NCBI GenBank assembly: GCA_047971315.1
Contig: JBKDZP010000002.1
Location: forward strand, 7,118 to 71,117
Source of the DNA: Bacilli bacterium
GTDB lineage: Bacteria > Bacillota_I > Bacilli_A > RF39 > UBA660
Length of the DNA stretch: 64,000 nt
Reading direction: 5' to 3'
Part shown: positions 42,836 to 46,106 of the stretch, one piece after another
Position numbering within the stretch: the stretch's first letter is position 1
Layout of the letters: the number at the start of each line of letters is the position of its first letter
Notes under the pieces: generated by a model
What the model was told of the DNA's origin: nothing
The model's database searches: none
Seen by the model: only the letters and a program-made list of their open reading frames with translations
Program-made: the position numbers and the translations under genes

Positions 42836-44141
42836 ATTAATGTATTTAACAAGTTTTAGTTTAAAAAGAAAAATAAAAACAAAATGGTTTTTAATAGCTA
42901 ATATTTTATTTGCTTTTATAATTATTGGAGTTTCAAATATTGATAATATTATTAATTTTTTTGGAGGAGATTTTAATCAAAAAGTTCAAGTATATGTACT
43001 AGATAATACTAATTATACATTTGATACTCTAAAACCACAAATTGATGGAATTAGTTTAAATACTGATGGATCAGAAGGTATTTATGAGGCAGTAATATAT
43101 GATGGAACAATAGAAGAAGCTAAATTATTATTAGAAGAAGAAGTAAATAATTTAGTATTAATAATTGATGAAGACAAAGAAACTGTTTTAAAAGTAACAT
43201 TAATTTCAGAAGGATATTTAGATACAATTGATTATCAATTGTTTAATACAGCTATTAATAATACTAAAGTTGCAATAGCTATGTCACAATCTAATATTGA
43301 TACTGATGAATTAACTAAAATATATTCAGCAGTTAATATCGAAAGAATATATTTAGATGAAACTAAAACAACAGATGACGAAAATATGGAAATGATTATA
43401 TCATCAGTGTTTCCAATTATTATACTACCATTTTTCATGTTGATAATGTTCTTAGTTCAAATGATTGGTGCTGAGGTTAATGATGAAAAAACTACAAGAG
43501 GAATGGAAATGATTATATCAAGTGTTTCTCCAAAAACTCATTTTTTCTCTAAAATAATTGCTGGAAATGTGTTTATTTTATTACAAGGATTTTTATTGTT
43601 ATTGTATGGTGGAATTGGATTATTTGTTAGAAATATCATTGGAAGTAGTGGAATAACTGATTTACTTGGTAGTTCAGCAAGTGGTATATTTGATGGATTA
43701 TTAAATTCTGGATTATTTGATAAAATGATTTTAATTATTCCAGTTACTTTATTACTTATGATACTAACATTTCTAGCATACTCTCTTTTAACTGGAGTAC
43801 TTGCTTCGATGACAACTAATGCTGAAGATTTTTCTCAATTACAAACACCTATAATATTAGTTTCATTAGTTGGATATTATTTATCATTAATGGCAGGTAT
43901 GTTTGATGGGGCTTTATTTATAAGAGTTTTATCTTATGTACCATTTATTTCTGCTATATTATCTCCATCATTACTTGTTTTAGAACAAATTGGAATATTT
44001 GATGTAATTATTTCAATTATATTAATAATTATAACTAATGTATTATTAATTAAGTATGGACTTAAAATATATAAAGTTGGTATTTTAAACTATTCTTCTA
44101 AAAATTTATGGAAAAAAATGTTTAAAGCAATGAAGGACTAA
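42816..44141 (+). CDS. ABC-2 permease (YhaP/NatB-like)
   Basis: EVNDEKTTRGMEMIISSVSP, multiple TM segments, KIYKVGIL. Confidence 0.88.
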   Translation: MNLMKNKLMYLTSFSLKRKIKTKWFLIANILFAFIIIGVSNIDNIINFFGGDFNQKVQVYVLDNTNYTFDTLKPQIDGISLNTDGSEGIYEAVIYDGTIEEAKLLLEEEVNNLVLIIDEDKETVLKVTLISEGYLDTIDYQLFNTAINNTKVAIAMSQSNIDTDELTKIYSAVNIERIYLDETKTTDDENMEMIISSVFPIIILPFFMLIMFLVQMIGAEVNDEKTTRGMEMIISSVSPKTHFFSKIIAGNVFILLQGFLLLLYGGIGLFVRNIIGSSGITDLLGSSASGIFDGLLNSGLFDKMILIIPVTLLLMILTFLAYSLLTGVLASMTTNAEDFSQLQTPIILVSLVGYYLSLMAGMFDGALFIRVLSYVPFISAILSPSLLVLEQIGIFDVIISIILIIITNVLLIKYGLKIYKVGILNYSSKNLWKKMFKAMKD

Positions 44142-44154
44142 TGTCCTTTTTTTG
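44115..44154 (+). repeat. Left 40-bp direct repeat (permease 3' end, stop codon and terminator)
   Basis: aaaatgtttaaagcaatgaaggactaatgtcctttttttg. Confidence 0.95.
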
Positions 44155-44362
44155 GTGGAAATTTCCAAACCGAGTGTATAAATAAATATTAAAGTAAGAA
44201 AATTTTCACTTTTTTTTTATATATTTAAAATTAATAAATAATAAATATATAAAAACTAGAATATAATAGCCTGAATTTAAATTAAAGATAAATTTTTAAT
44301 TCAAATTCATTGTCAATTTATTAATATTGTGTTATTCTAAAGTAGAAGATAGGAGTAGTAAA

Positions 44363-46012
44363 ATGAAGAATTATAATTTAAGACAACAAGGTTTTACTTT
44401 AATAGAGTTATTAGCAGTTATAGTAATATTAGCTGTAATAGCATTAATCGCTACACCAATGATATTAGGTGTAATAGATACAGCAAAACATGGAGCTGCA
44501 GAATCAAGTGCACTAGGATTTGTAGATGCTATCGAAAAAACAGTAATATTAAAAATGATGGATGGTGAAGTAATGAAAGGTGATTATACCGTTGCTGAAT
44601 TAAAAAATTCAGTATCATTTAAAGGAAATGGTCCTTCAAAAGGTAAAATTACTATATCTACAGTAGGTGAAGTTAGTAGTGCTACATTATGTATAAATAA
44701 TTATAAAATTAGTTATGACGGTAAAAAGGCAGAAGTAGTAGAAACAAATTGTGATGATATGAGTGAAGTTTTAGAAAAATACACAGAAAGTATATTAAAT
44801 GGAACAGATCCAGTATTAGGAACAAATATGATCCCAGTAATAATAGCAGATAATGGGGATGTAACATATGCAGATACTAATACAAAATGGTATAACTATG
44901 CAAGTAAGGTATGGGCAAATGCTGTAATATTAATAGATTCACCATCTACAACATATGTAATTGGAGATACAATAATTGAAAATGATATAGAATCATACTT
45001 TGTATGGGTGCCAAGATATAAATATAAGTTATTTAATACAGGAGAGTACTCTGGATATATAACAGGTAAAAATTCAACATCAAATGCACAAACAATAGAA
45101 ATAGTTTTTGAAAGTAAAGATAAAACAGTATCAAATGGTACATTAGTGGGAAATTATCTAACACATGTAACATTTACTACTTTAGATGTAAATGGTATGT
45201 GGGTAGGAAAATTTGAAACAGGATATGCTGGAGCAACAAGTATAGGTACAGCTCATGTAAATACTATAGATTCAAGTAAAATAATAGTTAAACCAAATGT
45301 ATATTCATGGAGATATAATACAGTATACAATATGTTTATGTCGGCATATAATTATGATACAACAAATGGTTCACATATGATGAAAAATACAGAATGGGGA
45401 GCAGTATCATATCTATCAAGTTCAGTATATGGAATAAATAAAGAAGTAAATATAAATAATAATAGCTCATATTTAACAGGATACAGTGCTGTAGAAGGTA
45501 CAGATCAAAGTAAATTTTACGGAACATTTGAAGCTTCATCAGATATAACATTACCATATAATACAACAACAGGATATTTAGCAAGTACAACTGGAAATAT
45601 ATCAGGAATATATGATATGTCAGGTGGTGCACATGAATATATGGCATCATATATTAGTGGTCAATTAGGAAGTAGTGGATTTGATACTACAACCATAGCA
45701 AATACAGATTATACAAAGTACTTAGATGTATATAATGCAAGTTCTACAATAGATTCTTATCAATATAGAATCTTAGGAGACGCAACCGGAGAAATGGGAC
45801 CATTCTATTATTATAAAGATGGAGATAATAATTATCGACGTCACAATGGATGGTACGCTGATGGTTCGAATTTCGTGGAGGCTTCGAACCCATGGTTCTA
45901 TCGTGGAGGCAGTTTCTATTATGGAGTACTCGCTGGTCAGTTCTTCTTCGATAGGATTACAGGAGAAGGTATCCCTTACATGGGCAGTCGCCTAGTACTC
46001 GCTATAAACTAA
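44363..46012 (+). CDS. Type IV prepilin fused to a C-terminal C-type-lectin/FGE-sulfatase-like domain; putative DGR target adhesin
   Basis: QG|FTLIELLAVIVIL; YFVWVPRY, WVGKFE, KNTEWGAVSYL, GIYDMSGGAHEY, WFYRGG…AGQF…GSRLVL. Confidence 0.88.
   Translation: MKNYNLRQQGFTLIELLAVIVILAVIALIATPMILGVIDTAKHGAAESSALGFVDAIEKTVILKMMDGEVMKGDYTVAELKNSVSFKGNGPSKGKITISTVGEVSSATLCINNYKISYDGKKAEVVETNCDDMSEVLEKYTESILNGTDPVLGTNMIPVIIADNGDVTYADTNTKWYNYASKVWANAVILIDSPSTTYVIGDTIIENDIESYFVWVPRYKYKLFNTGEYSGYITGKNSTSNAQTIEIVFESKDKTVSNGTLVGNYLTHVTFTTLDVNGMWVGKFETGYAGATSIGTAHVNTIDSSKIIVKPNVYSWRYNTVYNMFMSAYNYDTTNGSHMMKNTEWGAVSYLSSSVYGINKEVNINNNSSYLTGYSAVEGTDQSKFYGTFEASSDITLPYNTTTGYLASTTGNISGIYDMSGGAHEYMASYISGQLGSSGFDTTTIANTDYTKYLDVYNASSTIDSYQYRILGDATGEMGPFYYYKDGDNNYRRHNGWYADGSNFVEASNPWFYRGGSFYYGVLAGQFFFDRITGEGIPYMGSRLVLAIN
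45830..46012 (+). other. Putative DGR variable repeat (VR)
   Basis: GC about 47% (80/170, hand count over 45841-46010) versus about 25% in a sampled upstream line; NNY codons and A-free TCG/CGT/CGC/CTC codons. Confidence 0.65.
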
Positions 46013-46066
46013 AATCCTATATTTTGTCAGGACTTTGTTAAGTTAAGTGTGTAAATTTGTTAAGAT

Positions 46067-46106
46067 AAAATGTTTAAAGCAATGAAGGATTAATGTCCTT
46101 TTTTTG
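46067..46106 (+). repeat. Right 40-bp direct repeat
   Basis: aaaatgtttaaagcaatgaaggattaatgtcctttttttg; 39/40 identical to 44115-44154. Confidence 0.95.

What the first reader, a model, noticed from the sequence alone, without database searches (positions are those of the whole stretch)
44115..46106. Single-gene pilin-adhesin cassette flanked by a 40-bp direct repeat of the host gene's 3' end and terminator
Seen: 39/40-identical repeats 1952 bp apart. The left copy holds the last codons, stop and AAGGAC-TAAT-GTCCTT-T7 terminator of the ABC permease. The cargo is only a promoter region and the pilin-lectin gene; there is no recombinase and I see no terminal inverted repeats. Removing the cassette restores a clean permease-yqfC junction. 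Established: duplications this long exceed typical 2-14 bp TSDs; precedents are att cores and terminator-duplicating IS1630 of Mycoplasma fermentans. Inference: a recent insertion by an unknown trans-acting mechanism; recombination between the repeats could also excise it.
Basis: partly seen in the sequence, partly recalled or inferred. Interest (0 to 1): 0.8.

Follow-up and report, generated by a model that had tools for sequence, protein, structure and literature searches.

The report
Adhesin gene inserted with duplicated terminator
A single gene for a pilus-mounted, lectin-like adhesin has been dropped between two housekeeping genes of an uncultured gut bacterium, copying 40 bases of the landing site in the process; this looks like a rare but already described kind of recombinase-free insertion rather than a new mobile element.

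Summary
Two 40-nt direct repeats (39/40) lie 1952 bp apart, occur nowhere else in the 978-kb genome, and bracket one promoter plus one intact gene.

A metagenome contig (L057) keeps eight flanking genes in the same order, with the permease terminator directly followed by yqfC. This supports an insertion.

The cargo is a type IV pilin fused to the C-type-lectin fold of DGR variable proteins (TaqVP, Z 16.1). It belongs to a family of over 6000 proteins. Paralogues in this genome are live DGR targets, but this copy does not match the genome's only template repeat.

I found no recombinase, no inverted ends and no second copy of the insert's ends. None of 85 related genes examined has such flanks.

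The right junction lies in a 7-nt microhomology, inside a 14-mer otherwise found only in the 3' UTRs of two paralogues. I read this as microhomology-mediated "insertion with long target duplication", so far described for restriction-modification genes (PMC2853133).

An earlier scan note (e1-736409) reports a similar terminator-bracketed pilin gene in another genome. I could not find or verify it.

The parts
41936..42835 (+). ABC transporter ATPase gene, upstream partner of the permease
   Evidence: Pfam ABC_tran E 4.3e-32 and DrrA1-3_C. Syntenic in L057 at 78% identity.
42816..44141 (+). ABC-2 family permease gene; its last 27 nt lie in the left repeat
   Evidence: ORF; Pfam ABC2_membrane_3 E 2.2e-24. 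26 relatives found at 46-64% identity.
44115..44154 (+). Left copy of the 40-nt direct repeat: the last 8 codons and stop of the permease, plus the terminator hairpin and T7-G
   Evidence: Terminator-like site at 44132-44149. Fold energy -10.1 kcal/mol.
44155..46066 (+). Inserted segment (1912 bp): 208 nt of non-coding leader, the pilin-lectin gene, and a 54-nt 3' UTR without a terminator of its own
   Evidence: Absent from the syntenic loci L057 and L058. Its ends are unique in the genome.
44271..44285 (+). 15-nt word CTGAATTTAAATTAA, containing a palindrome, upstream of the promoter. It is shared exactly only with the upstream region of the DGR-target pilin gene on contig C11.
   Evidence: 3 exact copies in the genome (this one, plus two on C11 created by an IS target duplication). 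0 of 1000 shuffles reach it; 11 of 3000 random genome pieces do. No copy with at most one mismatch in 154 loci of other genomes.
44310..44338 (+). Promoter-like site TTGTCA-17-TATTCT with TG before the -10 hexamer, about 25 nt upstream of the start codon
   Evidence: a consensus match only. Promoter-like sites in the region are not more frequent than in shuffles.
44363..46012 (+). Gene for P0001 (549 aa): type IV prepilin leader and N-terminal helix, a small pilin-like domain, then a C-type-lectin / FGE-type domain of the DGR variable-protein kind
   Evidence: N_methyl E 2.7e-08 at aa 7-30. AF2 model mean pLDDT 82.6. TaqVP 5vf4 scores Z 16.1, rmsd 3.7, 246 residues aligned; TvpA Z 10.4; Mtd Z 8.8; pilin TTHA1221 Z 5.2 on aa 44-127.
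45800..46012 (+). GC-rich (40-45%), adenine-poor 3' end of the gene. It is homologous to DGR variable regions but is not matched by the genome's template repeat.
   Evidence: Composition. Alignment to the TR gives 46 mismatches at 135 non-adenine TR positions. It is more diverged between paralogues than the rest of the gene: 75% against 85% nt identity.
46060..46073 (+). 14-nt word TTAAGATAAAATGT straddling the insert / right-repeat junction, with 7 nt on each side. Elsewhere it occurs only in the 3' UTRs of the two DGR-target pilin genes, just before their terminator hairpins.
   Evidence: 3 exact copies in the genome. 0 of 1000 shuffles reach it; 7 of 3000 random genome pieces do.
46067..46106 (+). 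Right copy of the 40-nt repeat. It now serves as the only terminator-like hairpin after the pilin-lectin gene.
   Evidence: Fold energy -8.8 kcal/mol. The simple scan does not call it, because only 2 G-C pairs remain.
46150..46389 (+). yqfC (YabP family sporulation gene), the downstream neighbour
   Evidence: Pfam YabP E 4e-11. The yqfC-yqfD(-VanZ) order is seen in most of the 29 family loci examined.
46386..47564 (+). yqfD sporulation gene
   Evidence: Pfam YqfD E 8.5e-62.

Best explanation
A promoter-to-3'UTR copy of a pilin-lectin gene was inserted immediately behind the intrinsic terminator of the ABC permease by illegitimate, microhomology-mediated joining. No dedicated recombinase was involved.

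The likeliest route is as follows. A replication or repair intermediate stalled at the terminator hairpin. It switched to a donor molecule carrying the gene and copied it. It then re-joined the chromosome 40 nt behind the point of departure, using the 7-nt match AAAATGT. An equivalent route is a two-ended illegitimate join to two sister duplexes. Either route leaves the 40 nt (permease tail plus terminator) on both sides of the insert.

Both genes now end in a terminator. Permease and yqfC stay intact, and the new gene brings its own promoter. The event belongs to the class called 'insertion with long target duplication'. RecA recombination between the 40-nt repeats could delete the insert again.

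Shown: the repeat, its uniqueness, the gene content, the empty syntenic site in relatives, the absence of inverted ends, and the junction word.

Inferred: that the 14-mer is native to the insert's 3' UTR, the template-switch route, the recency of the event, and reversibility.
For: (1) The repeat is exact in architecture and far above chance.

(2) Empty site. L057 shares 8 ORFs of at least 80 aa with window 38956-48992, and its permease terminator is directly followed by yqfC. L058 has the same junction. On the permease tree these two loci sit in two separate clades.

(3) The insert has no mobility gene. The inverted-end test is not above shuffles, and there is no similarity to the ends of the genome's IS. 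The insert's ends occur nowhere else in the genome.

(4) The word TTAAGATAAAATGT spans the right junction. Its only other copies in 978 kb lie in the 3' UTRs of the two DGR-target paralogues, 10-20 nt before their terminators. A second exact word links the upstream regions of the same genes. The 7 nt on the repeat side are permease codons, also conserved in relatives. A 7-nt donor/target match is therefore the simplest reading.

(5) The class exists. Furuta et al. 2010 describe gene units flanked by target duplications of 30 nt or more that carry no mobility genes, for example 46-47 nt in Haemophilus and Thermus, mostly in naturally competent species (PMC2853133; passages and Discussion read).

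(6) The genome encodes type IV pilus machinery of the kind also used for DNA uptake: two PilB-like and two PilT-like ATPases and a prepilin peptidase.
Against: - This is a single instance, and no donor copy was found. The nearest paralogue in the assembly is only 85% identical at nucleotide level, and the nearest protein outside the genome is 67% identical.
- The left junction cannot be tested for microhomology without the donor.
- That the 14-mer is native to the insert is an inference from two other genes.
- The 'empty' sites are in relatives with only 59-64% permease identity, so the target sequence itself cannot be aligned outside the coding part.
- Pilin genes also sit directly after the permease terminator in two other lineages (L070, L077). 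An earlier scan note (e1-736409, unverified) reports a terminator-bracketed pilin-lectin gene in another genome. Such recurrence would fit a dedicated terminator-seeking mechanism better than random illegitimate events.
- No reads were available to confirm the assembly or to look for the empty allele.
Confidence: 0.45

Rival explanations
1. Transposase-driven insertion in trans. An IS-encoded enzyme that makes long staggered cuts at palindromes, as reported for IS1630 of Mycoplasma, mobilised the gene and duplicated the 40-nt terminator as a target-site duplication.
For: The genome holds an IS481-like element of about 1.1 kb: an HTH plus rve transposase, with inverted ends sharing GATGTGAGACA. 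On contig C11 it is flanked by an exact 24-26-nt direct repeat that contains a palindrome, right upstream of a paralogous pilin gene. A second, partial IS copy follows that gene. IS1630 is cited as making 19-26-nt duplications (PMC2853133, passage). Pilin genes sit behind the same permease terminator in two other lineages.
Against: The insert's ends show no similarity to the IS inverted repeats; 264-443 of 500 shuffles score as well. The two ends also show no similarity to each other. No IS sequence lies inside the repeats. The ends occur once in the genome. The IS transposase gene on C11 carries an in-frame stop. 0 of 85 related genes has such flanks. A junction in a microhomology is not expected for transposition.
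Confidence: 0.15
2. Site-specific integration. The 40 nt are an att core. The insert is the remnant of, or a satellite of, an integrase-bearing element that targets the 3' end of the permease gene and brings a replacement copy of it (a CIME-like remnant).
For: The form fits: identical direct repeats cover the 3' end of a gene and restore it. The single mismatch is synonymous in the permease frame, as expected if one copy came from another strain's allele.
Against: There is no integrase in or beside the insert. There is no other copy of the 40-mer or its hairpin core in the genome. The hairpin has a 4-nt loop and 6-7-bp arms, an ordinary terminator layout and shorter than what I recall for recombinase core sites (arms of about 11 bp around a 6-8-bp spacer). 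The 1.9-kb cargo shows no element backbone. There is no match in phage records (tblastn), and the exact 29-nt repeat word has no match in viral contigs.
Confidence: 0.1
3. Homology-facilitated or two-step recombination from a donor strain that already had permease-terminator-pilin. One end recombined in the permease gene and the other joined illegitimately upstream of the recipient's terminator. A variant is tandem duplication followed by homologous exchange.
For: The arrangement permease-terminator-pilin exists in relatives (L070, whose pilin N-terminus is 52% identical over aa 8-80, and L077). The one difference between the repeats is a synonymous third-position change, as between two alleles. 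The tandem-duplication-plus-recombination route is proposed in PMC3457768 (passages). A probable tandem duplication of a pilin unit exists on C11/C10.
Against: It only moves the problem to the donor. L070 and L077 are distant (50-57% permease identity) and their contigs end before the right flank can be seen. One synonymous change is weak evidence. This rival overlaps with the best explanation, since both are illegitimate joins.
Confidence: 0.15
4. Old resident gene. The pilin gene has long lain between permease and yqfC, and the right repeat arose secondarily by gene conversion or selection for a terminator. L057 and L058 lost the gene.
For: Pilin genes follow the permease in L070 and L077.
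Against: The right copy repeats 23 nt of permease coding sequence, which has no function there, without any change. The permease-yqfC adjacency is found in two separate clades of the permease tree.
Confidence: 0.07
5. Assembly artefact: a chimeric join of two loci at a shared 40-mer in a metagenome assembly.
For: The genome is a 19-contig, 90.6%-complete assembly, and other family copies sit at contig ends.
Against: The 40-mer exists only at these two places. An artefact would therefore need both junctions to be false in a way that happens to keep both flanking genes intact and gives the insert a terminator. 40 nt is shorter than the word sizes that I recall assemblers ending on, so reads must span each junction.
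Confidence: 0.05

Closest known systems
Insertion with long target duplication (Nobusato et al. 2000, known here only as a cited reference; Furuta, Abe and Kobayashi 2010, PMC2853133, passages and Discussion read)
   Same: A short gene unit with no transposase or integrase and no inverted ends. It is flanked by direct repeats longer than 30 nt that are single-copy target sequence and occur nowhere else in the genome. Repeat identity is 39/40 here, against for example 44/46 and 47/47 in their Table 2.
   Different: The cargo is a pilus adhesin gene, not a restriction-modification system, so their suggested driver (DNA breakage by the restriction enzyme) does not apply. Here the duplicated target is an intrinsic terminator, and one junction shows a candidate 7-nt microhomology. 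The empty site is seen only in distant relatives, not in a conspecific genome.
IS1630 of Mycoplasma fermentans (IS30 family)
   Same: It duplicates unusually long targets (19-26 nt; PMC2853133). From memory, these are inverted repeats such as terminators.
   Different: IS1630 is an autonomous IS with a transposase and inverted ends. The insert here has neither. The long-repeat IS found in this genome is IS481-like, not IS30-like.
DGR variable proteins of the C-type-lectin / FGE fold (TaqVP 5vf4, TvpA 2y3c, Mtd 1yu0)
   Same: The fold of aa ~155-549 (Z 16.1, 10.4 and 8.8). The 3' end is A-poor and GC-rich. Paralogues in this genome and 6 of 110 family genes in relatives have a template repeat with adenine-specific mismatches.
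   Different: This copy has no template repeat nearby and does not match the genome's only one. It carries a type IV pilin N-terminus.
Modular type IV pilins (Streptococcus sanguinis PilB and PilC; PMC8179133, search listing and abstract only)
   Same: A pilin N-terminal module with a grafted binding module. The genome has the pilus machinery.
   Different: The grafted module here is a DGR-type lectin fold. Display on a pilus is inferred, not shown.

Membership tests
Insertion with long target duplication (criteria of PMC2853133) | Direct repeats longer than 30 bp flank the insert | tested here: met
   40 nt, 39/40 identical.
Insertion with long target duplication (criteria of PMC2853133) | The repeats align with a single-copy target in a genome that lacks the insert | tested here: inconclusive
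   L057 and L058 have the permease terminator followed directly by yqfC, within conserved synteny. They are only 59-64% identical in the permease, so only the coding part of the repeat can be aligned. No conspecific genome was available.
Insertion with long target duplication (criteria of PMC2853133) | No mobility gene in or beside the insert; insert shorter than 20 kb | tested here: met
   1912 bp with one ORF, whose only Pfam hit is N_methyl. The neighbours are ABC transporter and sporulation genes.
Insertion with long target duplication (criteria of PMC2853133) | The repeat is not a dispersed repeat of the genome | tested here: met
   2 copies only, allowing up to 3 mismatches.
Insertion sequence / non-autonomous transposon (MITE or mobile insertion cassette) | Terminal inverted repeats, or ends matching those of a resident IS | tested here: not met
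   End-versus-end score is reached by 383 of 500 shuffles. End-versus-IS inverted repeat scores are reached by 264-443 of 500 shuffles.
Insertion sequence / non-autonomous transposon (MITE or mobile insertion cassette) | Several copies with the same ends | tested here: not met
   Within the genome, homology to paralogues runs only from the ribosome-binding site to the stop codon. 0 of 85 family genes in other genomes has comparable flanks.
Integrase-mediated island or its remnant (att core repeats) | A tyrosine or serine recombinase gene in or next to the element | tested here: not met
   None within 41936-48190.
Integrase-mediated island or its remnant (att core repeats) | The two repeats are recombined by a recombinase acting in trans | not testable with these tools
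   Needs an excision assay or read evidence. No run was listed.
DGR variable protein (current target) | C-type-lectin / FGE-type fold with the variable region at the C-terminus | tested here: met
   TaqVP Z 16.1, rmsd 3.7, 246 residues aligned. Foldseek E 1.8e-05.
DGR variable protein (current target) | A template repeat matching the variable region, with differences confined to adenines of the template | tested here: not met
   Against the only TR found (contig C10, about 517-639): 46 mismatches at 135 non-adenine positions and 21 at 49 adenines. No other TR-like match to the 3' end was found in the assembly, which is 90.6% complete.
Type IV pilin | Class III signal peptide with G-1, F+1, E+5 and a hydrophobic N-terminal helix | tested here: met
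   N_methyl E 2.7e-08 and TIGR02532 E 5.7e-08. Sequence QQG/FTLIEL. Helix aa 13-66 in the model.
Type IV pilin | Prepilin peptidase and assembly ATPase present in the genome | tested here: met
   Peptidase_A24 at C7:66532-66858. Four T2SSE matches, two of them full length.

The most novel reading that the evidence does not exclude
Reduced-genome gut Bacilli may disperse their DGR-type pilus adhesin genes as single promoter-to-3'UTR units by a terminator-seeking process that copies the landing terminator. Each new gene would then arrive with a ready-made stop signal and without harming its neighbours. The agent could be replication template switching at terminator hairpins, or the long-duplication IS481-like transposase acting on ends that do not look like its own.

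This would be a recurrent, recombinase-gene-free route of gene mobility for adhesins.
Probability: 0.15. Interest if true: 0.7.

Novelty: new member of a known kind. Interest (0 to 1): 0.42.

Why it matters
Insertion with long target duplication has been documented mainly for restriction-modification genes. Their own nucleases were suspected of driving it.

A clean case with a harmless adhesin gene, a terminator as the duplicated target and a candidate microhomology at one junction argues that the process is a general host route. That route could be stalled replication or illegitimate joining of imported DNA.

It also shows how very small gut genomes reshuffle a large, fast-evolving adhesin family without disturbing compact operons. 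If further terminator-bracketed copies are confirmed, the mechanism becomes testable.

Tried and rejected
- **Sequencing runs for the region:** none was listed, so neither an empty allele nor an assembly check was possible.
- **Family-level genomes:** 53 of 61 genomes have yqfD. In the 29 loci examined, the gene upstream of yqfC is neither the permease nor a pilin, and it differs from genome to genome. They are therefore uninformative about the empty site.
- **Flank-repeat survey of related genes:** I scanned 24 ORFs from 20 loci of three genomes and 61 genes with at least 300-bp flanks out of 79 GTDB loci. Every score of 23 or more is, or appears to be, the start, end or upstream region of a neighbouring tandem paralogue. 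None is a copy of a host gene's end.
- **Flanks of the closest paralogue (C3):** no homology beyond the ribosome-binding site.
- **Resident IS ends versus insert ends:** no similarity.
- **smc terminator lead:** 65 nt of the insert's 5' part are 78% similar to the smc 3' end and terminator on C4. This hinted that the donor locus lay after an smc gene. No smc lies next to any family gene in 154 loci, so I dropped the lead.
- **The two shared words in relatives:** no copy with at most one mismatch, apart from one unrelated 1-mismatch hit, in 154 loci / 890 kb.
- **Viral contigs and phage records:** no exact match to a 29-nt word of the repeat in viral contigs, and no protein match in phage records.
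- **Earlier-noted terminator-bracketed pilin gene 'between polC and polA':** polA was found in 195 of 201 family genomes, but only the 29 best loci were fetched. Only one weak, partial family hit lies at a contig start there. The other 165 were not examined.
- **DGR retrohoming as the cause of the repeat:** rejected. The copy does not match the TR, and the repeats lie outside the variable region.
- **Literature on DGRs and type IV pilins:** among the papers listed by my two searches, none describes type IV pilin DGR targets in Bacilli. One survey mentions a GspG-type pilin domain holding a variable region (PMC11661182, one passage). Supplementary tables of these papers could not be seen and may list such targets.

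
Full report
**1. The observation**

The two repeats are real. Copies at 44115-44154 and 46067-46106 are 40 nt long, 39/40 identical and 1952 bp apart.

- The left copy carries the last eight codons and the stop of the ABC-2 permease (ORF 42816-44141).
- It also carries a hairpin with a T7 run that the terminator scan calls at 44132-44149.
- The one difference is a C-to-T change. 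It is synonymous in the permease frame and converts a stem C-G pair into a wobble pair. Folding energies are -10.1 and -8.8 kcal/mol.
- The 40-mer with up to three mismatches occurs only at these two places in the 977,605-base, 19-contig assembly. The hairpin-containing sub-words do too.
- The same flank-repeat score on 1000 random intervals of this genome reached 30 or more once. This locus scores 36.
- A genome-wide scan for direct repeats 300-8000 bp apart gave only 26 pairs, most of them paralogous genes or internal repeats.

**2. What lies between the repeats**

The 1912 bp between the repeats hold three things:
- a 208-nt leader with a promoter-like site carrying an extended -10 (44310-44338);
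- one intact ORF (44363-46012, 549 aa);
- a 54-nt 3' UTR with no hairpin of its own, so the right repeat supplies the only terminator.

There is no recombinase or transposase. The two ends are not inverted repeats of each other.

**3. The cargo**

The only Pfam hit is the prepilin N-terminal methylation motif. An AlphaFold model built on 48 family sequences (mean pLDDT 82.6) shows a long N-terminal helix, a small pilin-like domain and a large C-terminal domain.

| Structure | Z | rmsd | Residues aligned |
|---|---|---|---|
| TaqVP, the Thermus aquaticus DGR variable protein | 16.1 | 3.7 | 246 |
| TvpA | 10.4 | 4.2 | 186 |
| Mtd | 8.8 | 4.1-4.7 | 181-186 |
| Formylglycine-generating enzymes | about 8 | 4.1-4.5 | 173-182 |
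| A Thermus pilin (on aa 44-127) | 5.2 | 3.8 | 75 |

These values come; Foldseek gave E 1.8e-05 for TaqVP.

The genome encodes a prepilin peptidase and four T2SSE-type ATPases. Display on a type IV pilus is therefore plausible, but it is inferred.

The family is very large:
- 6042 proteins at E of 1e-10 or better among 8000 scored candidates. The nearest outside this genome is 67% identical.
- 23 matches in the own genome, including an intact paralogue (82% protein, 85% nucleotide identity), a pseudogene about 8 kb upstream in the window, and fragments.
- More than 30 copies in some sister genomes.

**4. The link to a diversity-generating retroelement**

The last ~200 nt of the gene are 40-45% GC and adenine-poor, in a genome of about 24-25% GC.

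The genome has one reverse transcriptase, on contig C10. Upstream of it lie a small ORF with a MutS domain I match and a template repeat. Two variable regions, one on C10 and one on C11, are 87% identical to the template. By my count on the printed alignment, about 15 of 17 core differences for the C11 copy fall on template adenines, and about 10 of 16 for the C10 copy.

These two target genes are pilin-lectin paralogues, 39% identical to the cargo protein. Their 3' UTR hairpins differ by compensatory changes.

In relatives, 6 of 110 family genes have a repeat about 200 nt downstream with 78-100% of its mismatches at template adenines.

The cargo gene itself is not a current target. It shows 46 mismatches at 135 non-adenine template positions, and no other template-like match exists in the assembly. 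It is best described as a copy detached from the mutator. This agrees with earlier scan notes on sister genomes.

**5. Is it an insertion?**

No genome of the same genus is held. In 29 family-level loci the gene upstream of yqfC varies and is never the permease.

A permease-based scan of metagenome contigs gave 26 loci at 46-64% identity. Downstream of the permease they show:

| Downstream of the permease | Loci |
|---|---|
| yqfC directly | 2 (L057, L058) |
| A pilin gene | 2 (L070, L077; both contigs end soon after) |
| Contig ends | 4 |
| Other genes | 18 |

L057 shares eight ORFs of at least 80 aa with window 38956-48992, at 52-78% identity, in the same order. Its permease ends in a stop-overlapping hairpin and T-run, followed after about 45 nt by yqfC. 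This is the architecture obtained here by removing the insert and one repeat.

On the permease tree the two yqfC-adjacent loci sit in different clades. One of them is sister to a pilin-adjacent locus. The permease-yqfC adjacency is therefore probably ancestral, and the pilin gene is an insertion.

The right copy keeps 23 nt of permease coding sequence unchanged although they have no function there. This argues for a recent event.

**6. Is it a mobile cassette?**

I found no support for a discrete element.
- Homology to the paralogues starts 17 nt before the start codon and ends at the stop codon. The insert's non-coding ends are unique in the genome.
- Among related genes in other genomes, none of 24 plus 61 has a flanking repeat derived from a host gene. 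The high scores are, or appear to be, neighbouring tandem paralogues.
- No match exists in phage records, and the exact 29-nt repeat word has no match in viral contigs.

**7. Junction evidence**

Two exact words link the insert's flanks to those of the C10/C11 target genes, and to nothing else in the genome.

- A 15-mer containing a palindrome lies upstream of the promoter (window 44271; C11 60401 and 61540).
- The 14-mer TTAAGATAAAATGT occurs at window 46060, C10 418 and C11 63436.

Neither word was reached in 1000 shuffles. Random genome pieces reached them in 11 and 7 of 3000 trials, a count that includes the true loci. Neither word occurs in 154 loci of relatives.

In the two paralogues the 14-mer lies 10-20 nt before the terminator hairpin. 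Here it straddles the junction between the insert and the right repeat. Its last 7 nt are the permease codons for Lys-Met-Phe, which are conserved in relatives.

The simplest reading is that the insert's native 3' UTR ended in this word, and that joining happened within the 7-nt match to the target. That is the signature of illegitimate, microhomology-mediated joining, not of a transposase or integrase. The left junction cannot be judged without the donor.

**8. Mechanism and rivals**

I favour a recombinase-free event at 0.45. It could be template switching at a hairpin-stalled fork or repair intermediate that returns 40 nt behind its departure point. It could equally be illegitimate joining of the two ends of imported DNA to sister duplexes. 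Either way it falls into the described class 'insertion with long target duplication'.

| Rival | Confidence |
|---|---|
| Trans-acting transposase | 0.15 |
| Integration at an att core by an absent recombinase | 0.10 |
| Homology-facilitated or two-step recombination from a donor strain with permease-terminator-pilin | 0.15 |
| Old resident gene with a secondary duplication | 0.07 |
| Assembly artefact | 0.05 |

Points bearing on the rivals:
- For the transposase rival, the genome does hold an IS481-like element flanked by an exact 24-26-nt repeat at a palindrome, next to a paralogous pilin gene. The insert's ends do not resemble that element's ends.
- The donor-strain rival shares the illegitimate join with my preferred reading.

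**9. Comparison with what is known**

Furuta, Abe and Kobayashi (PMC2853133; passages and Discussion read) define insertions with target duplications of more than 30 bp, shorter than 20 kb and without mobility genes.
- They list cases of 46-47 nt repeats at 44/46 to 47/47 identity.
- They note that most such cases are in naturally competent species.
- They suggest double-strand breakage by the restriction enzymes as the driver.
- The same paper cites IS1630 as making 19-26-bp duplications.

PMC3457768 (passages) extends the idea to 'other DNAs' and offers tandem duplication plus homologous exchange as an alternative route.

The present case meets the formal criteria, except that the empty site is known only from distant relatives. 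Its cargo is an adhesin gene.

For the cargo, the closest known proteins are the DGR variable proteins named above and the modular type IV pilins of Streptococcus sanguinis (PMC8179133; listing and abstract only).

**10. Verdict**

The 'cassette moved by an unknown trans-acting mechanism' is not supported as such.

It is a new member of a known, poorly understood kind of rearrangement, carrying a detached DGR-family pilus adhesin gene. Interest is moderate. It would rise if further terminator-bracketed copies are verified.

An earlier scan note (e1-736409) describes such a copy in another genome. I tried to find it through polA flanks in 29 of 195 family genomes and did not.

Noticed in passing
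G000 contig C10:1-2650 and C11:61649-63490 (outside the window): A complete DGR: template repeat at about C10:517-639, a 125-aa ORF with a MutS domain I match in place of a recognisable Avd, and a 344-aa reverse transcriptase. It has two pilin-lectin targets whose variable regions differ from the template mostly at adenines. A PilB-like ATPase gene lies about 7 kb away on C10.
   Followed up: partly
G000 contig C11:60400-61564: An IS481-like element of about 1.1 kb (HTH plus rve transposase with an in-frame TAG; inverted ends sharing GATGTGAGACA). It is flanked by an exact 24-26-nt direct repeat containing the palindrome AATTTAAATT. From memory, this is far longer than the target duplications usual for that IS family. 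It sits right upstream of the promoter of a DGR-target pilin gene.
   Followed up: partly
G000 contig C11:60950-61100 and 63491-63641 (contig end); C10:1-467: A 151-nt exact repeat places an internal piece of the IS directly after the pilin gene's terminator, at the contig end. C10 starts with a 94.6% identical copy of the same gene's 3' end. Together these suggest a collapsed tandem duplication of a 2.5-kb unit (half an IS plus the target gene), giving the DGR two targets. The two 3' UTR hairpins differ by compensatory changes.
   Followed up: partly
window ~34735-36692 (G000 C2:41852-43809): A pseudogene of the same pilin-lectin family (63% identity over aa 180-547, with 2 TAG and 2 TAA stops inside), about 8 kb upstream of the insert. 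Further pilin N-terminal genes lie at window ~9457, ~21932 and ~22598.
   Followed up: no
L057:10299-11612; L070:7429-7659; L077:1301-2188: In relatives, single pilin genes with their own promoters sit at various intergenic sites of otherwise syntenic regions: 3 kb downstream of VanZ in L057, and directly after the permease terminator in L070 and L077. This suggests frequent gain and loss of such genes.
   Followed up: partly
window 44155-44231: The first ~75 nt of the insert read like the end of a foreign ORF (12 codons and a stop) followed by a decayed hairpin and a T9 run. 65 nt there are 78% similar to the smc 3' end and terminator on C4. This may be a piece of the donor locus; no support was found.
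   Followed up: yes
window 44156-44167: A perfect 12-nt palindrome, TGGAAATTTCCA, lies one base after the left repeat. Its function is unknown.
   Followed up: no
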